A DNA stretch of 64,000 nt from a virus. The notes under the pieces were generated by a model, which ran no database searches, was not told the DNA's origin, and saw only the letters and a list, made by a program, of their open reading frames with translations. The translations under genes were made by a program, and so were the position numbers. Each line of letters starts with the position of its first letter. Position 1 is the first letter of the stretch. The stretch spans positions 23,529 through 87,528 of IMG/VR virus record IMGVR_UViG_3300010397_000043; one strand, written 5' to 3'. Shown piece by piece: positions 4,292-56,458 of this stretch.

Positions 4292-4876
4292 TCACTTGCT
4301 GCTCGTACCGCCGAGCTGAAGAATCTTCAGACGCCGTTCCCTTGCAGCCGCTTGGACAATCGCGTCCTGGCTGAAGAGTCGGTGCATCGTCCGATCTGAG
4401 GTGCCCCACGATTTCGCGAGGCTGAGTGCGTTCGGGTTCGAGGGGATCGAAACGATGCTGATTTCCAGCAGTTCCTGCCCGATGAACTCGAAACCCGAGA
4501 ATTGATCTTGCTTGTCCCGGAGGATTTGCGGCTCCTGGGTGACCGCGAAGCCCACGCTGACAGCGCGGACAATCTTTTGGTCGATCAGCTTGCGGAGCGT
4601 GTCGATGAACTCGCTCGTACCGAAGTCGGCCAGCTTGATATCGCTCACAAGCTGCGTGCCCTCGACCATGGTCTTGGGGCTGTACCCGACCGGCAGCTTG
4701 CCGTCGTGGCCGAATAGAACGATGGGGTTCTTCTTGTACCGACGGAGGTCCCAGCCCGAGGCGCGAACAATGTCGCCGTGACCATCGACTGACTCATCGC
4801 TGGCGACAAAGCTCAGCATGCCGTCAGGCGACGCCTTCGTGATCTGGACTTCCTTGAAAACGGTCTGCACTTCCAC
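4292..4876 (-). CDS. Prohead maturation protease (HK97/U35 family)
   Basis: ASDESVDGHGDIV, NPIVLFGHD, AVSVGF and ELLEISIVSIPSNPNA motifs. Confidence 0.93.
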   Translation of the reverse strand: MEVQTVFKEVQITKASPDGMLSFVASDESVDGHGDIVRASGWDLRRYKKNPIVLFGHDGKLPVGYSPKTMVEGTQLVSDIKLADFGTSEFIDTLRKLIDQKIVRAVSVGFAVTQEPQILRDKQDQFSGFEFIGQELLEISIVSIPSNPNALSLAKSWGTSDRTMHRLFSQDAIVQAAARERRLKILQLGGTSSK

Positions 4877-5488: not shown

Positions 5489-7093
5489 CTACAAAAAGAA
5501 CAGGCTCGATTCGGTGACCGGGGGCTTGCCCTCCTCCGGCTTCTCGTAGAAACCGCCCGTAGCCATCACAGCAGCGACCATGGGGTCGATACGGGCGCTC
5601 GACTTCGCCTTCTCGAGCTTGCGGTTCTTGGCTGGGTCGAGCGCGACGACCGCGTTAGCCGCCGCCATGTTGAGCAGAGGGTTGTCGCCGTGGGCGAGCT
5701 TTTCCTCCAGTAGCAGTGTCTCGAAAAACTCGACGCGCGGCGACATGTCACGAAAGCCCTGGCCCACCGAGTACCACTGGTCTTCGGGCAGGTCCTGCAG
5801 AAAGCCCTCGGCCGCAGCATCCATCTTGAATTGGCTGATGCGCCACCGGTCGAAGTGCAGGCCGGCAATGCGCATGCCAGTCAACTGCATCTTGAGGTAC
5901 TGGCAGACCATGGCGTAGCTGATGATGCGCCCAGGCAGCGCGATCAGGTGGCCTTGCTTCACCCAGGTCTCGTACGGAACCCGGTCTTGCTTGGCCCGCT
6001 CACGCAGGCCCACGATGGGCGTGAATGCAAAGCACTTGAGGTGCATGACGCCAGTGTCGGGGTGCCGGGCCGCAAGCACCGCCGCAGTCAAGTCCCGGTT
6101 CTGCGACAGGTCGAGTCCGATATGCACGTCCACGCCGCTTGTGAACAGGTCCTCGTCCACCTCGCCGGCTGCGGTCTTCCAGACGCTGGGGGCCACGAAC
6201 AGGGTCAACAGCGAAATGCGCTGGTTCAGGTACAGGTTGCGGAACGTCGGCTCGAAGGAGCTGATGCGCCTAGCCCGCTCGGCGGCTTCCTTGAACTCCT
6301 TCTCACTGCGGAACTTGCCCAGTGCGAAGTTCACGGTCTGCCACACCACCGGGTCGAAGATGTCGGAATCTTTCGCCGCTGCGTACAGCCGAAGAACCGT
6401 TTCCGGCGTCGGGTTCATCATCGCGTCGTCGATCAGCACACTCAGCAGGTCTGTATCACTTGCGGCCTGCGTGCTGATGATCAGCGATAGGGGTTCGTGC
6501 TGCGCGCCACCGGCGGTTTCCAGGGCGTCGTACAGTCCATCCACCGGGCCAATCACCTGCCCCAGTTCGTCGTGGATGGTCAAGGCCGGGGACAAGCCGT
6601 GAGCCGTGGTCGCATCCGCGCTCAGCGCCCGGTAGACCGTTCCCATCGCAAGGCCCTTGATGGTCTTGTACGAATCGGTGATCTGTACCAGATTGCCCAG
6701 GTCGTTGCGCAGCCGAAGTGACTTGGCGAGGTAGTTGAAAATCAGCGCCGCTTGGTCCCGACTGCGAGCCGCAGAGTACAACTGAGCGTTGGCCCTGGCT
6801 TCGGGTCCGATCAGGTGCCCCGCCAGAAGGGCCGCAATCAGGCCCGTTTTCCCATTCTTACGGGCAATCGACAGGATGCCCCGCCGAGTAATCAGGGCCC
6901 CGAGCGGGTCCACGTTGTCATATACAGCCTCAACGAAGTCGGTCTGCTCCGGTAGCAGCACCATCGGTTGCCCGACCAGCATGCCGTCTGGCACGAGGAT
7001 GTACTTCTCGATGAACCGCTGCATGCGCGAGGCACGCAGGGAACTGACCAGCGGCTTCTGCGCCGGTAGAGCAGCTTTGCGGCGAGGCATCAC
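5489..7093 (-). CDS. terL: Terminase large subunit
   Basis: Walker A IARKNGKT, Walker B IHDELG, coupling motif IISTQ, nuclease motifs GLDLS and RIDPMVA. Confidence 0.96.
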   Translation of the reverse strand: MMPRRKAALPAQKPLVSSLRASRMQRFIEKYILVPDGMLVGQPMVLLPEQTDFVEAVYDNVDPLGALITRRGILSIARKNGKTGLIAALLAGHLIGPEARANAQLYSAARSRDQAALIFNYLAKSLRLRNDLGNLVQITDSYKTIKGLAMGTVYRALSADATTAHGLSPALTIHDELGQVIGPVDGLYDALETAGGAQHEPLSLIISTQAASDTDLLSVLIDDAMMNPTPETVLRLYAAAKDSDIFDPVVWQTVNFALGKFRSEKEFKEAAERARRISSFEPTFRNLYLNQRISLLTLFVAPSVWKTAAGEVDEDLFTSGVDVHIGLDLSQNRDLTAAVLAARHPDTGVMHLKCFAFTPIVGLRERAKQDRVPYETWVKQGHLIALPGRIISYAMVCQYLKMQLTGMRIAGLHFDRWRISQFKMDAAAEGFLQDLPEDQWYSVGQGFRDMSPRVEFFETLLLEEKLAHGDNPLLNMAAANAVVALDPAKNRKLEKAKSSARIDPMVAAVMATGGFYEKPEEGKPPVTESSLFFL

Positions 7094-37785: not shown

Positions 37786-38124
37786 GTGGAACTCAAACTT
37801 GGCTTGGTTCTTTCCAAGAGGGACAAGAGGAAACTCGAAGCCCTCGTTCACAGCTTCAATGAAAGGTTCGATTCGATGTCCACTCAACTCGAAGCACTCG
37901 TCGCCCAGGTCCAAGCCACCAACGGCGTCATGGAATCGGCGGTCACGCTCATCAATGGCCTGCAGGCCCAACTGGCACAGGTGCAGGCCGATCTGGCTGC
38001 ACAGGGCGTGACCAACGCCCAACTGGACGCGCTGACCACTCAGCTCAACCAGGGCGACGACGCGCTGCAGGCCCTGCTCGCGGCGAACAGCCCGGCCCCC
38101 GCGCCGCCGCCGGCCCAGCCGTGA
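37786..38124 (+). CDS. Coiled-coil hypothetical protein
   Basis: Gln/Ala heptads; start may be at MSTQLE. Confidence 0.65.
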   Translation: MELKLGLVLSKRDKRKLEALVHSFNERFDSMSTQLEALVAQVQATNGVMESAVTLINGLQAQLAQVQADLAAQGVTNAQLDALTTQLNQGDDALQALLAANSPAPAPPPAQP

Positions 38125-38133
38125 AAGACCAAC

Positions 38134-38210
38134 GGCCACATAGCTCAATCTGGTAGAGCGTCGGTCTCCAAAACCGAAGGTTGGGGGTTCAAGTCCCTCT
38201 GTGGTCGCCA
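38134..38210 (+). tRNA. tRNA-Trp (anticodon CCA)
   Basis: Full cloverleaf: GGCCACA/TGTGGTC acceptor, TCGGT-CTCCAAA-ACCGA anticodon arm, GTTCAAGTCC T arm, G73, encoded CCA. Confidence 0.95.
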
Positions 38211-38229
38211 AGTTAGGAGGGTTCTTTGT

Positions 38230-38419
38230 TGGGCAGTAGCTCAGGGGTCTGTGGAGGTACGGTGGAGGGAACGCCATCGGTGACCACAGAGGCAGGCGGA
38301 AAGGTGTAGTCGGTGATCGGGCAAGGACCACCCACGATGCCGGCATCGCCGAGTAGCATGCCTAGAGCGGCTGGTATATAACCAGAGGGTCGTTGGTTCG
38401 ATTCCAACCTGCCCCACAA
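38230..38419 (+). ncRNA. tRNA-like RNA (anticodon loop TATATAA) with a 115-nt structured insert in the D-loop
   Basis: GGGCAG/CTGCCC acceptor, GCTC/GAGC D-stem, CTGG/CCAG anticodon stem, GTTGG-TTCGATT-CCAAC T arm. Insert 38249-38363 folds into two long hairpins. Confidence 0.8.
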
Positions 38420-38440
38420 AGAATCCTCCTTAAAGCCGAA

Positions 38441-38472
38441 GCCGGCTGGCAACCCCAGCCGGTTTTTCTTTT
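38441..38472 (+). terminator. Rho-independent terminator after the tRNA pair
   Basis: GCCGGCTGG-CAACC-CCAGCCGG-TTTTTCTTTT. Confidence 0.88.
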
Positions 38473-38489
38473 GTACCTGCGAATCCATC

Positions 38490-41414
38490 ATGGCCCTGGA
38501 CCTCGACTTCGAGACTTTCTGCGAGCTGAACGTCCGCACGGTGGGCGCGTACCGGTACGCCAGCCACCCAAGCTGTGAAGTGCTGGTGTTGTGCTACTCC
38601 ATTGACAACGGGCCGGTGCGCCGCTGGGTGCCCTACGCCGATGGCCCGGACGCACCCCCGCGCCCGCTGCCCAGGGCCCTGCGCCGCTACATCGAGGACA
38701 CCGATGGTGAGCTGATCGCGCACAACAGCCAGTTTGAAATGTGCATCTGGCATTACGTGATGGAGCGGCTGCACGATGCCCCGCCCATCGCGCCGCATCG
38801 ATGGGTATGCACTGCGGCCATGGCGGCGGCATGCGGCTTGCCCCGTAGCCTGGACGGTGCAGCGATGGCGATGCAGTTGCAGCACCAGAAGAACAAGGAA
38901 GGCGCACGACTGCTCAACATCTTCGCCAAGCCGCGCAAGCCCACGAAGCTGAACAAGGCGACCCGCACCTACCCCTGGGACCGGCCCGACGAATTCGAGA
39001 AGCTGTGCGAGTACTGCGAGGACGACGTTCGTGCCGAGGCCGAGCTTTATGAGCGCCTGCCGAAGCTGTCCAAGTACGAGCGCCGGGTGTTCGCCAAAGA
39101 TATTGAGATGAACAGCCGTGGCCTGCCGCTGGACGTGCGGGCCGTGAAGACCGGGTTTCGCCTGCTGACCGAACTGGAGCGGCGGAACAAGAACCGTGTC
39201 GAGCAGTTGACCGGCGGTATACGTGCCACGCAGCGCGACAAGATGCTGGAGCATTTCAAGTCGCTGGGCGTCGAACTGGAAAACCTGCAGGCCAAGACGA
39301 TCCGCGACCTGATTACGGCCCAGAAGGAAATACTGCCTGACGCGGCGGTCGAGCTACTGCTGCTGCGGATCGAGGGCGGCAAGGCTTCGACCAAGAAGCT
39401 GAAGAAGATGCTGGAGGTCATGCTCAAAGACGGGCGTGTCCGAGGTGCCTTCCTGTACTGGGGTGCGCACTGTGTACCCGGGGATACCGAAGTGCTGACC
39501 CGTAGCGGCTGGGTGCCTATCAAAGACTGGGATGGCAAGAGTGAGATCGCGCAAGTAAACGAGCAACTCGAAACACAGTTCTTGCCCGGCAAGAAATTTG
39601 TCGGCCCAGTAGCAGATCGCTGGCTTCAAGTACGAACGGAGATGTTTACGGGGGACTTTACGCTCGGGCACACGATGCCATACTTCCATAAACACAACGG
39701 TTCCTTCCAGTATGAAAAAGCTGGTGTGTTCGCCACTCGGGCCCGTCGCAGTGTCCCCGTATCTACTGTTATGCCTAGCACCGGTGCGTTGAACGCAGTG
39801 CAGATGCGTGTGCTAACAATGGTCCAGGCCGATGGGCACTTCGCCAAAGGCAAGAACCAGGGCATGCTCCTCTTTACGTTCAAAAAAGAACGGAAGATCG
39901 AACGCTGTCAGAAACTTCTTGCGGAAGCTGGTATACCGTGTCGGGTGCGTGGCCCATACGCGAGCGGCAACGTGGCTGTGAAGATAAGCCGAAAAGACGT
40001 TCCGCATTGGCTAACCGAAGAACGTAAATCGTTTGGCCCATGGGTACTTGATAGTACCCCTGCGGCTCGACTTGCATTGATCGAAGAGGCAGCGTTCTGG
40101 GATGGATGTACCGACCCGCGCAACGAGTTCTTTTCGTACAGCTATTCAACTACGGACCCTGTAAGTGCCGAGTGGCTGCAGACGGTAGCGCATTTGACTG
40201 GGTACAGGTCTTCAATTACGATGCGTGATCGCGGACGCGAAGGCTGGAAGGATTCCTATCGAGTACATGTCTGGCAAGGTAATAGTGCTGACGTCCGTGA
40301 ACATCACATGGCTGTTGTTACCGAAAGGCGTAAGACGTACTGCGCAGAAACGCAGACTGGGTATTGGCTTGCTAGACACAACGGTCATATATTCGTTACT
40401 GGGAATACGGGCCGGTACGCCGGCAAGCTAATCCAGCCGCAGAACTTCACGCGCGGCGAGTACACGCCGTATCAGCAGTGGCTGCTGTTCCAGCACCTGA
40501 TGTCGGGCGATGCCGACGTGATGCAGTGGGCGTACCGCTGGCCCATTGACGCCATCGCTCAGGCCATGCGCGGCTTCGTACGCGCACCCCGGGGCAAGAA
40601 GTTTGTCGTGGTGGACTTTAGCGCCATCGAGGCGCGAGTCCTAGCGTGGATCGCGGGCGAAGAGAAGACGCTCAACCTGTACCGCCTGGGTGCGGACCTA
40701 TACAAGCGATTGGCTGTGAAGCTGTATAAGCTGAACAGCGAGGCCGAGGTGCAGGACTGGCAGCGCAAGTTCGCGAAGGACCTGTTCCTCGGCGCGGGCT
40801 ATCAGCTCGGGTGGGCCGGCTTCGTCAAGCAATGCTTCATGCGTGGCATCGTGGTCGATCCCGAAGAGGCCAAGGCGGCTATCAAAACTTACCGCGACGA
40901 CAATCCCAATATCGTGCGGCTTTGGTATGACGTGGAGCGCGCTGCCGTGCGTGCAGTCGAGATTAGCGCGACACGCACAAGGCCTGTAAAATTGTGCAAA
41001 TTGCACTTTTACTGCGACGACGTATGGTTCTGCATCCGCCTGCCCAGTGGTCGCGTGCTTCGGTACGTGTACCCGCGAATCGAGCATGGCGAGCGATTCG
41101 GCAAGCCGGTCAAGAAGCTTACATACCGTAGCGAGTTTAAGGGCAAGTGGATTCGAGAATCGACGTATGGCGGTAAGCTGGTCGAAAACCTTGTCCAGGC
41201 TATCGCACGCGATTTGATGGTTAACGCATGGTTTAACGCAGAGGACGAAGGTTACGAAGTGATTGGGACGGTACACGACGAGCTGATTACCGAGGTAGAC
41301 CGGGACTTCGGTAGCCCGCACGAGCTTGAGGAAATTCTTCGGCGCAAACCCGACTGGGCCGACGATGCTCCGATCAATGCCGAGGGGTGGGAAGGTGTTC
41401 GATACCGCAAGTAG
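38490..41414 (+). CDS. DNA polymerase family A (3'-5' exonuclease + polymerase), intein-containing
   Basis: LDFET and AHNSQFE exonuclease motifs; DFSAIEARV (motif A), RKFAKDLFLGAGY (B), ENLVQAIARD, VHDE (C). Confidence 0.95.
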   Translation: MALDLDFETFCELNVRTVGAYRYASHPSCEVLVLCYSIDNGPVRRWVPYADGPDAPPRPLPRALRRYIEDTDGELIAHNSQFEMCIWHYVMERLHDAPPIAPHRWVCTAAMAAACGLPRSLDGAAMAMQLQHQKNKEGARLLNIFAKPRKPTKLNKATRTYPWDRPDEFEKLCEYCEDDVRAEAELYERLPKLSKYERRVFAKDIEMNSRGLPLDVRAVKTGFRLLTELERRNKNRVEQLTGGIRATQRDKMLEHFKSLGVELENLQAKTIRDLITAQKEILPDAAVELLLLRIEGGKASTKKLKKMLEVMLKDGRVRGAFLYWGAHCVPGDTEVLTRSGWVPIKDWDGKSEIAQVNEQLETQFLPGKKFVGPVADRWLQVRTEMFTGDFTLGHTMPYFHKHNGSFQYEKAGVFATRARRSVPVSTVMPSTGALNAVQMRVLTMVQADGHFAKGKNQGMLLFTFKKERKIERCQKLLAEAGIPCRVRGPYASGNVAVKISRKDVPHWLTEERKSFGPWVLDSTPAARLALIEEAAFWDGCTDPRNEFFSYSYSTTDPVSAEWLQTVAHLTGYRSSITMRDRGREGWKDSYRVHVWQGNSADVREHHMAVVTERRKTYCAETQTGYWLARHNGHIFVTGNTGRYAGKLIQPQNFTRGEYTPYQQWLLFQHLMSGDADVMQWAYRWPIDAIAQAMRGFVRAPRGKKFVVVDFSAIEARVLAWIAGEEKTLNLYRLGADLYKRLAVKLYKLNSEAEVQDWQRKFAKDLFLGAGYQLGWAGFVKQCFMRGIVVDPEEAKAAIKTYRDDNPNIVRLWYDVERAAVRAVEISATRTRPVKLCKLHFYCDDVWFCIRLPSGRVLRYVYPRIEHGERFGKPVKKLTYRSEFKGKWIRESTYGGKLVENLVQAIARDLMVNAWFNAEDEGYEVIGTVHDELITEVDRDFGSPHELEEILRRKPDWADDAPINAEGWEGVRYRK
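39471..40406 (+). mobile_element. Intein with LAGLIDADG homing endonuclease, inserted in the DNA polymerase
   Basis: YWGAH|CVPGDTEVLTRSGW ... HIFVTGN|TGRY; VQADG and FWDG dodecapeptide motifs; more AT-rich codon usage. Confidence 0.92.
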
Positions 41415-56382: not shown

Positions 56383-56458
56383 GCCCCTGTAGCTCAATTG
56401 GCAGAGCAGCGGATTTCAAATCCGAGGGTTGCAGGTTCGAGACCTGTCGGGGGCGCCA
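56383..56458 (+). tRNA. tRNA with UCA anticodon (opal/UGA-reading suppressor)
   Basis: GCCCCTG/CGGGGGC acceptor, GCTC/GAGC D-stem, CGGA-TTTCAAA-TCCG anticodon arm, short variable loop, GCAGG-TTCGAGA-CCTGT T arm, G73, CCA. Confidence 0.9.

What the first reader, a model, noticed from the sequence alone, without database searches (positions are those of the whole stretch)
38230..38419. tRNA body carrying a 115-nt folded RNA domain inserted precisely in the D-loop
Seen: 19 nt after tRNA-Trp and just before a strong terminator lies a complete tRNA scaffold whose D-loop is interrupted. Deleting 38249-38363 restores a canonical D arm (GCTCAGGGGTAGAGC) and a 75-nt tRNA. The insert forms two long hairpins: TCTGTGG/CCACAGA enclosing CGGTGG/CCATCG, and GGCA/TGCC enclosing an internal GAA/AGTA loop (loop E/S-turn-like), GTCGGT/GCCGGC and ATCG/CGAT. 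Decoding features look degraded: T1:C72 mismatch, A33, loop TATATAA (nominal UAU/Ile), CAA instead of CCA. Knowledge: the insert is too short for, and lacks the ends of, group I (terminal G) or group II (GUGYG...AY) introns. Inference: a natural tRNA-scaffolded ncRNA, matured by RNase P/3' trimming to display an RNA domain (decoy for anticodon nucleases or defence sensors, or ribosome/synthetase ligand), or a new type of tRNA intron.
Basis: partly seen in the sequence, partly recalled or inferred. Interest (0 to 1): 0.88.

Follow-up and report, generated by a model that had tools for sequence, protein, structure and literature searches.

The report
Phage tRNA carrying extra folded module
A soil phage encodes a transfer-RNA-shaped RNA with an extra 115-base folded piece in one of its loops, and the same odd design recurs in three unrelated large phages, so it looks like a real kind of RNA that I could not find described and whose job is still unknown.

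Summary
At 38230-38419 there is a complete tRNA cloverleaf whose D-loop holds a 115-nt two-hairpin insert (38248-38362) between G19 and A21. A further 15 bp of leader-trailer pairing closes it, and a terminator follows. ARAGORN and Rfam miss it. ARAGORN calls tRNA-Ile(UAU) once the insert is deleted in silico.

It is not a one-off. Pattern scans of IMG/VR found three more genes (L165, L169, L206) in phages that share almost no proteins with this one. All have an insert of 103-125 nt at the same D-loop position. All share an unusual anticodon arm: G27•A43 and loop UAUNUAA, with A33 in place of the near-universal U33. Across the four, 11 of 21 cloverleaf pairs show compensatory changes. The inserts share no significant sequence.

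No ribozyme or intron family, conserved BHB motif, RtcB or splicing endonuclease was found.

Best reading (about 0.4): a tRNA-derived RNA that keeps the module as a fifth arm and does not act as a standard decoder. Main rival (about 0.3): an undescribed kind of phage tRNA intron. No expression data exist.

The scan has noted D-loop-interrupted tRNAs before on other DNA (e1-3844866, e1-6089966, e1-5278116). My searches found no paper describing them.

The parts
38134..38210 (+). tRNA-Trp(CCA) with encoded CCA. It lies upstream in the same transcription unit and is given as context.
   Evidence: ARAGORN; Rfam tRNA 70.7 bits
38215..38229 (+). 5' strand of the 15-bp leader-trailer helix that continues the acceptor stem
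   Evidence: Pair list: 15 of 15 standard pairs with 38416-38430. Similar leader-trailer helices flank ordinary tRNAs in other phage contigs, L250 and L216.
38230..38247 (+). 5' part of the tRNA body: acceptor 5' strand (38230-38236), U8 A9, D-stem 5' strand GCUC (38239-38242), and D-loop nucleotides A14 G15 G G18 G19 (38243-38247)
   Evidence: D arm identical in all four family members.
38248..38290 (+). Insert hairpin H1: 7-bp outer stem, AGGUA/GUGA internal loop, 6-bp inner stem, 8-nt loop
   Evidence: MFE and centroid folds; pair list
38291..38362 (+). Insert hairpin H2: a long irregular stem with a 5x5 GGAAA/GAGUA (loop-E-like) internal loop and a 15-nt terminal loop. It abuts H1 with no linker.
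38363..38416 (+). 3' part of the tRNA body: U, A21, D-stem 3' strand GAGC, G26, the anticodon arm (G27*A43, loop UAUAUAA at 38375-38381 with A33 at 38376 and UAU at 38377-38379), variable loop GGGUC, the T arm (38392-38408), the acceptor 3' strand (38409-38415) and A73 (38416)
   Evidence: Rfam tRNA partial match 38352-38410, 20.5 bits, below the 29-bit cut-off
38416..38430 (+). 3' strand of the leader-trailer helix. It starts with A73 and CAA, so no CCA is encoded.
38438..38476 (+). Intrinsic terminator (12-pair stem, then a T run) that ends the unit before the DNA polymerase gene

Best explanation
This is one member of a small family of phage RNAs that I could not find described. They derive from a tRNA that reads A-N-A codons (anticodon U34-N35-U36).

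Shown:
- The gene keeps a full, selected cloverleaf with every nucleotide needed for the L-shape: U8, A14, G15-C48, G18, G19, A21 and the T-loop.
- A 103-125-nt, fast-evolving, mostly well-folding module sits at D-loop position 20.
- The anticodon arm has G27*A43 and the loop U-A33-U-N-U-A-A.
- In the collections scanned, this anticodon-arm signature is found only in genes that also carry the insert.

Inferred:
- The RNA is transcribed with tRNA-Trp up to the terminator at 38438-38476.
- It is released through its leader-trailer helix in the way ordinary phage tRNAs with such helices are, by RNase III and/or RNase P plus 3' trimming.
- It keeps the module as a fifth arm. H1 and H2 would stack into one rod that enters and leaves the D-loop like a nick, beside the G19-C56 elbow.
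- A33 removes the U-turn, and two of the four phages also carry normal tRNAs with the same anticodon. So it probably does not serve as a routine decoder.
- It would instead act through its tRNA shape and anticodon loop on a host factor that handles Lys/Arg/Ile (U-N-U) tRNAs. The most plausible target is an anticodon-loop nuclease or another tRNA-directed defence enzyme. The RNA would act either as a version that resists cleavage or as a mimic that binds the enzyme.
For: Family:
- Four genes carry the insert at the same D-loop site: the window, L165, L169 and L206.
- A scan for the anticodon-arm and T-arm signature that did not require any D arm returned 3 of 3 insert-bearing genes in IMG/VR. 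It returned 0 in 185,579 species genomes.
- L206 was found by a pattern that did not ask for A33, yet it has A33.

Selection on the fold:
- 76 of 84 stem cells are paired, against 33-41 of 84 when the partners are slid by 1-3 positions.
- Of the 21 pairs, 11 show changes on both sides, 9 never vary, and one is always G*A.
- tRNA-body identity between members is 50-58 of 72 positions.

Inserts:
- Lengths are 115, 125, 103 and 103 nt.
- They fold better than shuffles in 3 of 4 cases: z -3.04, -2.27, -2.10 and -0.55.

No splicing signature:
- No Rfam ribozyme or intron family at E up to 10 or up to 5.
- No conserved BHB motif.
- No RtcB and no splicing endonuclease in any of the 4 phage records, one of which is 100% complete.

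Redundancy:
- G001 also has a normal tRNA-Arg(tct). G005 has two normal tRNA-Lys(ttt).

No shared phage partner:
- Only 10 of 700 G000 ORFs hit any of the three other phages. All 10 hit G001, and 9 of them lie in one stretch of tandem paralogues.

Processing context:
- The element is always in or beside tRNA genes.
- Ordinary tRNA-Gly genes in L250 and L216 carry similar leader-trailer helices.

Precedent that a roughly 100-nt module on a tRNA can be tolerated:
- Spinach placed in the variable loop gave a 183-nt tRNA active in translation (PMC5397188, passages read).
Against: - There are no expression data. No run listed as RNA holds this DNA, so whether the module is kept is pure inference.
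- The inserts share no significant sequence. The longest common substrings are reached by 50 to 461 of 500 shuffles.
- My covariance model gains nothing from the inserts. L165, L169 and L206 score 45, 46 and 31 bits, no more than ordinary tRNAs. Free drift of this kind is what one expects of an intron or a spacer.
- L206's insert folds no better than chance (56 of 200 shuffles as good).
- The engineered D-loop fusion in PMC5397188 (Spinach between positions 16 and 18) was not detectable in cells.
- The same jumbo phages carry tRNA genes with short hairpins inside the anticodon loop, which must be removed for the tRNA to decode. This suggests some splicing route exists in those systems.
- L206 has a perfect acceptor stem, A73 and CCA, which fits a chargeable tRNA.
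- The three anticodons (UAU, UCU, UUU) are all sense anticodons whose synthetases read mainly the anticodon. That fits real decoding as well as mimicry.
- No target nuclease was identified.
Confidence: 0.4

Rival explanations
1. The insert is a new kind of phage tRNA intron at D-loop position 20. It is cut out and the halves are joined by host or unknown enzymes, or the tRNA works as a nicked two-piece molecule. This would leave a roughly 75-nt tRNA-Ile(UAU), or Arg(UCU) or Lys(UUU) in the relatives, with an A33 loop that supplies a rare A-N-A codon.
For: - Deleting the insert gives a D arm (GCUCAGGGGUAGAGC) identical to that of uninterrupted phage tRNAs such as the tRNA-Thr in L166.
- ARAGORN then of the 4 members as tRNAs.
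- The insert sequence drifts freely while the exons are conserved.
- In 3 of 4 members the insert starts with UA and is followed by UA, so the junction is ambiguous in the way many intron junctions are.
- G001 and G005 also have tRNA genes with 26- and 32-nt hairpins in the anticodon loop.
- Lak megaphage tRNAs carry 'enigmatic introns' (PMC6784885, passages read).
- G001 encodes two RNA_ligase-family proteins.
- ATA is used 55 times in 22,580 codons of G000, and no other AUA-reading tRNA is encoded there.
Against: - There is no ribozyme core or ribozyme ends. At 103-125 nt it is too short for group I or II, the last base is C, U, A or U and not G, and Rfam finds nothing.
- No BHB motif is shared by the four.
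- No RtcB or EndA in any of the four phage records.
- No RNA ligase family hit in G000.
- No protein-dependent tRNA splicing is known in bacteria (general knowledge).
- A plain intron does not explain why the A33 and G27*A43 signature occurs only together with the insert.
- It does not explain why the insert length stays within 103-125 nt.
Confidence: 0.3
2. It is a true decoding tRNA that keeps the module, and the module is an identity element for a dedicated host synthetase. It would form an orthogonal tRNA/synthetase pair for an A-N-A codon, and the phage copy would exploit that pair.
For: - Position 20 is where ArgRS reads A20 (general knowledge).
- Earlier notes of this scan, which I have not checked, report D-loop-interrupted tRNAs next to divergent ArgRS-like or LysRS-like genes in soil bacteria, and phage copies of them (e1-3844866, e1-5278071, e1-5278116, e1-5906032).
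- The window phage is from soil.
- L206 has an intact acceptor stem, A73 and CCA.
Against: - None of the four phage records encodes an ArgRS core (PF00750) or a class II LysRS-type core (PF00152).
- The family signature was absent from 185,579 species genomes, so no bacterial counterpart with this anticodon arm was found.
- A33 should weaken decoding.
- The window copy has a U1*C72 mismatch and no CCA.
- I could not fetch the bacterial examples to compare them.
Confidence: 0.15
3. It is a decaying pseudo-tRNA that took up a piece of junk or mobile DNA and has no function.
For: - The window copy has a U1*C72 mismatch, A33 and no CCA.
- L165 pairs at only 4 of 7 acceptor positions, and ARAGORN does not call it even after the insert is removed.
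- Close relatives of the window phage, L083 and L084 (polymerase 64% and 63% identical), have neither tRNA-Trp nor this element at the same place.
Against: - Four lineages that share almost no proteins keep the same insert site, the same anticodon-arm signature and a paired cloverleaf, with 11 pairs changed on both sides.
- The insert has no terminal inverted repeats (read directly from the sequence).
- The element occurs only once in its genome.
Confidence: 0.05

Closest known systems
Canonical bacterial and phage tRNA (Rfam RF00005), especially phage tRNAs for AUA, AGA and AAA
   Same: - Full cloverleaf and all nucleotides needed for the tertiary fold.
- T-loop GGUUCGAUUCC.
- U34-N35-U36-A37-A38.
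- Sits in tRNA clusters.
- Leader-trailer helix like the ones flanking ordinary phage tRNAs.
   Different: - D-loop of about 110-132 nt instead of 7-11 nt.
- A33 instead of U33.
- G27*A43.
- Not detected by ARAGORN, and only 20.5 bits against the 29-bit Rfam cut-off.
'Enigmatic' introns of Lak megaphage tRNAs (Devoto et al. 2019, PMC6784885)
   Same: - Unexplained inserts in phage tRNA genes.
- No match to known intron families.
- Found in very large phages.
   Different: - The Lak inserts were predicted with eukaryote tRNAscan settings. The term D-loop does not occur in the main text.
[quoted passage not shown] The inserts here are highly diverged.
- I could not see the paper's Table S6, because supplements are closed.
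Non-canonical (including D-loop) BHB introns of Crenarchaeota and Cyanidioschyzon merolae tRNA genes (PMC3241643, PMC3728597, PMC4090602; search listings and abstracts only)
   Same: An intervening sequence at a non-anticodon position of a tRNA gene.
   Different: - Those need a bulge-helix-bulge motif and a splicing endonuclease.
- Here no BHB motif is conserved and no EndA or RtcB is encoded.
- tRNA-Trp has G73, which as I recall is the bacterial type, so the host is probably bacterial.
Engineered Spinach-tRNA fusions (Masuda et al. 2017, PMC5397188)
   Same: - A roughly 100-nt folded RNA grafted onto a tRNA, giving about 183 nt in total.
- The variable-loop fusion was charged and used by the ribosome.
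   Different: - Artificial.
- The working site was the variable loop.
- The D-loop fusion (between positions 16 and 18, which disrupts the G18/G19 region) was not detectable. Here the insert follows G19 and leaves G18-G19 intact.
tRNA-like domains of tmRNA and bacterial Y RNA (YrlA, RF02553)
   Same: tRNA mimicry joined to extra RNA domains. YrlA-like RNAs also occur in phages (recalled, not from a call).
   Different: - The element has no Rfam match to either family.
- Those RNAs lack an anticodon arm or replace it. This one keeps all four arms and adds a fifth.

Membership tests
Canonical tRNA (RF00005) | Four-arm cloverleaf that scores at or above the 29-bit Rfam cut-off | tested here: not met
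   Only a partial match, 38352-38410, at 20.5 bits. ARAGORN makes no call. After in-silico removal of the insert, ARAGORN calls tRNA-Ile(tat).
Canonical tRNA (RF00005) | U33 (the U-turn) in a 7-nt anticodon loop | tested here: not met
   The loop is UAUAUAA, with A at position 33. All 4 family members have A33.
Canonical tRNA (RF00005) | Stems kept by compensatory change among homologues | tested here: met
   11 of 21 pairs changed on both sides. 76 of 84 cells paired, against 33-41 of 84 in slid controls.
Canonical tRNA (RF00005) | Aminoacylation and use on the ribosome | not testable with these tools
   Needs a charging assay and a translation assay.
Group I intron | Conserved P3-P9 catalytic core, usually 200 nt or more | tested here: not met
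   The insert is 115 nt (103-125 nt in relatives). No Rfam intron family at E up to 10 or up to 5.
Group I intron | Terminal G (omega G) at the 3' end of the intron | tested here: not met
   The last insert base is C, U, A and U in the four members. Shifting the boundary by one base gives U.
Group II intron | 5' GUGYG and 3' AY ends, and six domains | tested here: not met
   The insert starts UCUGU and ends GCC. It is far too short, and Rfam finds nothing.
Archaeal/eukaryal protein-spliced (BHB) tRNA intron | Bulge-helix-bulge motif at both junctions | tested here: not met
   My script found 4, 2, 1 and 0 loose candidates in the four members. None was shared by all four, and none lay at positions that would restore G18-G19.
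Archaeal/eukaryal protein-spliced (BHB) tRNA intron | Splicing endonuclease (PF01974) and RtcB ligase (PF01139) available | tested here: not met
   0 of 4 phage records have either family. The controls gave matches as expected. The host genomes are unknown.
Lak-type phage tRNA introns | Insert in a phage tRNA gene that matches no known intron class | tested here: met
   PMC6784885 passages.
Lak-type phage tRNA introns | Insert at or near the anticodon loop, as predicted by eukaryote tRNAscan settings | tested here: not met
   The insert lies between G19 and A21 of the D-loop.
Self-cleaving ribozymes (hammerhead, hairpin, twister, pistol, hatchet, HDV-like) | Match to the family covariance model | tested here: not met
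   None listed at E up to 10 in 38100-38500, nor at E up to 5 in L165, L169 and L206.
D-loop-module tRNA family proposed here | Insert of about 100-125 nt between G19 and U20/A21, together with G27*A43 and the loop UAUNUAA | tested here: met
   The window, L165, L169 and L206. The signature scan returned only insert-bearing genes.

The most novel reading that the evidence does not exclude
Phages make a natural five-armed tRNA. A roughly 110-nt rod is kept at D-loop position 20, next to the elbow. Together with A33, it turns a Lys/Arg/Ile-type tRNA into an RNA that host tRNA-cutting defence enzymes bind but cannot cut, or cannot bind at all. That would make it an RNA-only counter-defence built on a tRNA frame. 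A bolder variant is that this RNA is still charged and read by the ribosome despite the extra arm.
Probability: 0.25. Interest if true: 0.85.

Novelty: new variant of a known kind. Interest (0 to 1): 0.74.

Why it matters
Standard tRNA finders miss these genes, so phage tRNA sets and codon-supply arguments are incomplete wherever such genes occur.

If the module is kept, this would be the first natural tRNA I am aware of with a large fifth arm at the elbow. It would then be a ready-made natural scaffold and a probe for what the ribosome, RNase P, synthetases and tRNA-directed defence nucleases tolerate.

If the module is removed, bacteria or their phages would have a tRNA splicing route at a non-anticodon site that nobody has described.

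Either answer can be tested with a synthetic gene and a Northern blot.

Tried and rejected
Known RNA families. The Rfam gathering and E-value scans of the window region and of L165, L169 and L206 gave nothing for the insert.

5S rRNA, SRP RNA, tmRNA, YrlA or hairpin-ribozyme likeness. I considered these because of the three-way junction and the loop-E-like loop. I dropped them because Rfam gave no match for the insert.

MITE or IS remnant. UA flanks both sides of the insert in 3 of 4 members. However, there are no terminal inverted repeats, and the element has a single copy in its genome.

Small ORF. An AGGAGG followed by a TTG-started 26-codon frame lies in the closing helix. It is not present in the other members, so I dropped it.

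Synteny route.
- Relatives of the DNA polymerase were collected: 301 proteins, 80 viral loci and 80 metagenome loci.
- They carry no such element at E up to 10.
- The closest, L083 and L084, have no tRNA there at all.

GenBank phages.
- BLAST of the window region hit 295 records, but only over the tRNA-Trp part.
- BLAST of L165 hit 62 records. None covered 80% or more of the query, and the 30 rows listed matched only the 3' tRNA half.
- The best of these, LR745206, is an ordinary tRNA-Lys.

Exact insert junction 19-mer: 0 hits in IMG/VR.

D-loop pattern scan. It returned 64 stretches.
- 58 are tandem tRNAs.
- 3 are odd 5' genes whose D arm is not interrupted (L202, L221, L231).
- 3 are family members.

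Looser A33 scan of species genomes. It returned 5 loci. Four are normal-length tRNAs. The fifth, L262, lies at a contig end, gave no model match, and I did not look at it further.

Insert homology. Longest common substrings are not significant. MAFFT misaligned the four members, so I counted stem pairs with my own script instead of the count of structure pairs.

Partner protein. BLASTP of G000 ORFs against G001, G002 and G005 found none. ArgRS and LysRS-type cores are absent from all four records.

Expression. No RNA holder is listed. Only one DNA run holds the stretch, and it may be the source.

Not used: complex prediction, structure prediction and the protein atlas. None would bear on an RNA.

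Limits.
- Collection scans need exact pattern matches, and records near the window's own may be hidden, so four members is a lower bound.
- All viral (8 of 8), metagenome (1 of 1) and genome (2 of 2) scans are spent.

Literature. I found no paper on D-loop inserts in bacterial or phage tRNA genes in searches. Only open-access full text is searched.
Full report
**What is there**

The window is part of an 87.5-kb uncultured soil phage record, G000, of which it covers 23529-87528.

tRNA-Trp(CCA) lies at 38134-38210. Nineteen nucleotides later a second tRNA-shaped gene begins. Its parts are as follows:
- Acceptor stem: 38230-38236 pairs with 38409-38415, with a U1*C72 mismatch.
- U8 A9, then the D stem: GCUC 38239-38242 pairs with GAGC 38365-38368.
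- D-loop: AGGGG, then 115 nt (38248-38362), then UA.
- G26, then the anticodon arm: a G27*A43 mismatch followed by four pairs, and the loop UAUAUAA.
- Variable loop GGGUC, T arm 38392-38408, A73, then CAA.

The insert is two adjacent hairpins, H1 (38248-38290) and H2 (38291-38362), with no linker between them.

The acceptor helix runs on for 15 more pairs into the leader (38215-38229) and the trailer (38416-38430). A strong intrinsic terminator follows at 38438-38476. The DNA polymerase gene starts at 38490.

The 221-nt element folds at -102.5 kcal/mol, against -77.0 +/- 4.4 for dinucleotide shuffles (z -5.75, 0 of 200 as good). The insert alone gives z -3.0.

ARAGORN and Rfam do not call the gene. 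ARAGORN calls tRNA-Ile(tat) after the insert is deleted in silico.

A Logan contig of the only run that holds this DNA covers 38161-38700 without a difference or a joint.

**Is it a one-off?**

Synteny did not help.
- Phages with the most similar polymerase, L083 and L084 (64% and 63% identical), go straight from the upstream coiled-coil gene to a terminator and the polymerase. They have no tRNA there.
- None of 160 polymerase-linked loci holds such an element.

I therefore scanned IMG/VR with patterns built from the tRNA parts only.
- The D arm, a gap of 95-125 nt, TAGAGC and the T-loop gave L165, which lies in a complete 350-kb phage.
- A pattern for the anticodon arm and T arm gave L169, on a 297-kb contig.
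- A looser D-arm pattern that did not specify the anticodon loop gave 64 stretches. Of these, 58 are tandem tRNAs, 3 are other oddities, and 3 are interrupted genes: L165, L169 and a new one, L206, on a 43-kb fragment that holds 43 tRNA genes.

All four genes have the insert between G19 and U20/A21. Insert lengths are 115, 125, 103 and 103 nt.

All four also have G27*A43 and the loop U-A-U-N-U-A-A, with N = A, C, U and U. The nominal anticodons are UAU, UCU, UUU and UUU.

A final scan asked only for this anticodon-arm signature plus the T arm, with no D-arm requirement. It returned exactly these three loci in IMG/VR. The same signature with GAGC added in front gave no hit in 185,579 species genomes. 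In the data scanned, the signature and the insert therefore always occur together.

A33 without the insert does exist. It occurs in L167/L168 and in four tRNAs from metagenome-assembled genomes. In those read, position 27 pairs normally with position 43.

**Is the fold selected?**

Across the four genes, 76 of 84 stem cells are standard pairs, against 33-41 of 84 when the 3' partners are slid by 1-3 positions. Of the 21 pairs, 11 show changes on both sides, 9 never vary, and one is G*A in all four.

Identity over the tRNA body is 50-58 of 72 positions.

L169 and L206 have 7 of 7 acceptor pairs. L206 also has A73 and an encoded CCA. L165 has only 4 of 7 acceptor pairs and may be decaying.

The four phages share almost no proteins. 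Only 10 of 700 G000 ORFs hit another of the phages. All 10 hit G001, and 9 of them lie in one stretch of tandem paralogues.

This rules out a chance insertion in a dead gene. It also argues that the RNA works with host components and not with a shared phage protein.

**The insert**

The inserts are not alignable.
- The longest common substrings are no longer than expected. The window and L206 share CGAGUAGC, which 50 of 500 shuffles reach. The other pairs are reached by 204-461 of 500 shuffles.
- My single-sequence covariance model scores the relatives no higher than ordinary tRNAs.

Three of the four inserts fold better than shuffles: z -3.04, -2.27 and -2.10, against -0.55 for L206.

Each MFE fold puts a hairpin with an internal loop first and a longer irregular stem after it. 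In L206 a short extra hairpin is predicted between the two. This is a common outcome for sequences of this length, so I give it little weight.

The loop-E-like GGAAA/GAGUA loop of the window has a close counterpart in L206 (GGC-GAAGU...GAGUA-GCC) and a looser one in L169 (GGCUA/GAAUA). This is suggestive only.

**What it is not**

- No Rfam intron, ribozyme or other family matches the insert in any member.
- It is too short for group I or group II introns. It lacks their ends: the last base is C, U, A or U.
- A script search for bulge-helix-bulge motifs found no candidate shared by the members.
- None of the four phage records encodes RtcB or a tRNA splicing endonuclease, while the control genomes gave matches.
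- RNA_ligase-family genes occur in G001 (two). There is a sub-threshold match in G002 and none in G000.
- No ArgRS or class II LysRS-type core is encoded in any of the four.

**Context that bears on maturation**

The element always sits in or next to tRNA genes.

The long leader-trailer helix looked at first like evidence that the window copy cannot be processed. However, similar helices flank ordinary tRNA-Gly(GCC) genes in other phage contigs. In L250 and L216, 12-13 bp continue the acceptor stem, and the model scores are 68.1 and 61.2 bits. The helix is therefore more likely a processing feature of phage tRNA precursors than a sign of a closed, unprocessed RNA.

G001 also has a normal tRNA-Arg(tct), and G005 has two normal tRNA-Lys(ttt). 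In those phages the interrupted genes are thus redundant as decoders.

G000 has no other AUA reader. It uses ATA 55 times in 22,580 codons of its long ORFs.

**How it most likely works**

Shown: a selected cloverleaf, a fixed insert site that spares every tertiary-contact nucleotide, a signature anticodon arm tied to the insert, and no known splicing signature.

Inferred:
- The RNA is made with tRNA-Trp and trimmed like a tRNA.
- It keeps the module. H1 and H2 abut, so they can stack into one rod that enters and leaves the D-loop as at a nick, in place of nucleotide 20 and next to the G19-C56 elbow.
- A33 should abolish the U-turn, so I expect poor decoding.
- I favour a role through tRNA shape and the U-N-U anticodon loop, directed at host enzymes that act on Lys/Arg/Ile tRNAs. 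Anticodon nucleases are the obvious class. Phage tRNAs with altered anticodon loops are thought to evade them (PMC10264068; abstract and passages read; that paper does not mention position 33).

I put this reading at about 0.4.

The main rival, at about 0.3, is an intron of a new kind.
- In favour: the inserts drift freely, and the same jumbo phages hold tRNA genes with hairpins inside the anticodon loop. Lak megaphage tRNAs also have unexplained introns (PMC6784885).
- Against: there is no machinery and no motif, and an intron does not explain the linked A33 and G27*A43 signature.

A third reading, at about 0.15, comes from earlier unchecked notes of this scan. These report D-loop-interrupted tRNAs beside divergent ArgRS- or LysRS-like genes in soil bacteria, with phage copies. 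On this reading the module is an identity element for a dedicated synthetase. I could test only the phage side, where no such gene is present.

**Novelty**

Five literature searches found D-loop introns only in Archaea and a red alga, and found engineered Spinach-tRNA fusions. In the Spinach work the variable-loop graft functioned, while the D-loop graft at positions 16/18 was not detectable (PMC5397188). I found no description of D-loop modules in bacterial or phage tRNA genes.

The scan itself has met related designs on other DNA (e1-3844866, e1-6089966, e1-5278116).

I rate this a new variant of a known kind: a tRNA or tRNA-like RNA with a new arm and a defined signature. It is of high interest because either outcome, a retained fifth arm or non-canonical splicing in a bacterial system, would be new. 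A simple expression experiment would decide between them.

Noticed in passing
window 39468-40406 (inside the DNA polymerase gene 38490-41414): The family A DNA polymerase is 974 aa, while its closest relatives are about 660 aa. The extra 313 aa lie between A326 and T640 and carry a LAGLIDADG_3 domain (26.7 bits, cut-off 22.5). This is probably an intein with a homing endonuclease.
   Followed up: partly
window 56383-56458: A second tRNA with anticodon UCA, which reads UGA. ARAGORN labels it SeC, but it has a normal short variable loop. The scan has already noted it (e1-6137754).
   Followed up: no
L250:1787-1887(+); L216:5904-6004(-) and 6006-6103(-): Ordinary tRNA genes (Gly-GCC and neighbours) in other phage contigs are flanked by 12-13 bp of leader-trailer pairing that continues the acceptor stem. 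The trailer takes the place of CCA, as in the window element. This may be a recurrent design of phage tRNA precursors.
   Followed up: partly
L169:4666-4816(-): A tRNA-like gene (Rfam tRNA 31.5 bits over 151 nt) with a good acceptor stem and CCA. It has an insert of about 80 nt in the variable-arm position and an odd anticodon loop, CGAUGAG. It is in the same phage as the D-loop family member.
   Followed up: partly
L206:11715-11827(-); L165:1313-1411(+): tRNA genes with short hairpin inserts in the anticodon loop, by ARAGORN's intron mode: 32 nt in a Leu(UAA) gene and 26 nt in a Pro-like gene. They lie in the same phages as two family members.
   Followed up: partly
L205:1032-1123(+), and the same gene in L247 and L252: ARAGORN calls a 92-nt tRNA-Ile(tat) with a long variable arm. 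That is unusual for an Ile tRNA.
   Followed up: no
L167:1841-1948(-), identical to L168:7946-8053(-): An uninterrupted tRNA with the loop UAUUUAA (A33), which ARAGORN does not call. It sits next to two tRNAs with anticodon CUA (amber readers) in a 456-kb phage.
   Followed up: no
L165:4378-4854(+); L165:4121-4128 and 4298-4305: A probable HNH endonuclease gene lies directly downstream of the L165 family member. Its Pfam matches (HNH_3 22.5 bits, HNH 16.7 bits) are below the curated cut-offs. The octamer GTACTAAC occurs both at the start of the insert and just after the tRNA's 3' end.
   Followed up: no
L206:8883-8985(-): A sub-threshold Rfam match to the Y RNA-like family YrlA (28.9 bits, cut-off 69, E 0.017), inside the tRNA array.
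   Followed up: no
window 38215-38309: AGGAGG in the 5' strand of the closing helix is followed 8 nt later by a TTG-started 26-codon frame that runs into the insert. It is not present in the other family members, so it is probably chance.
   Followed up: partly
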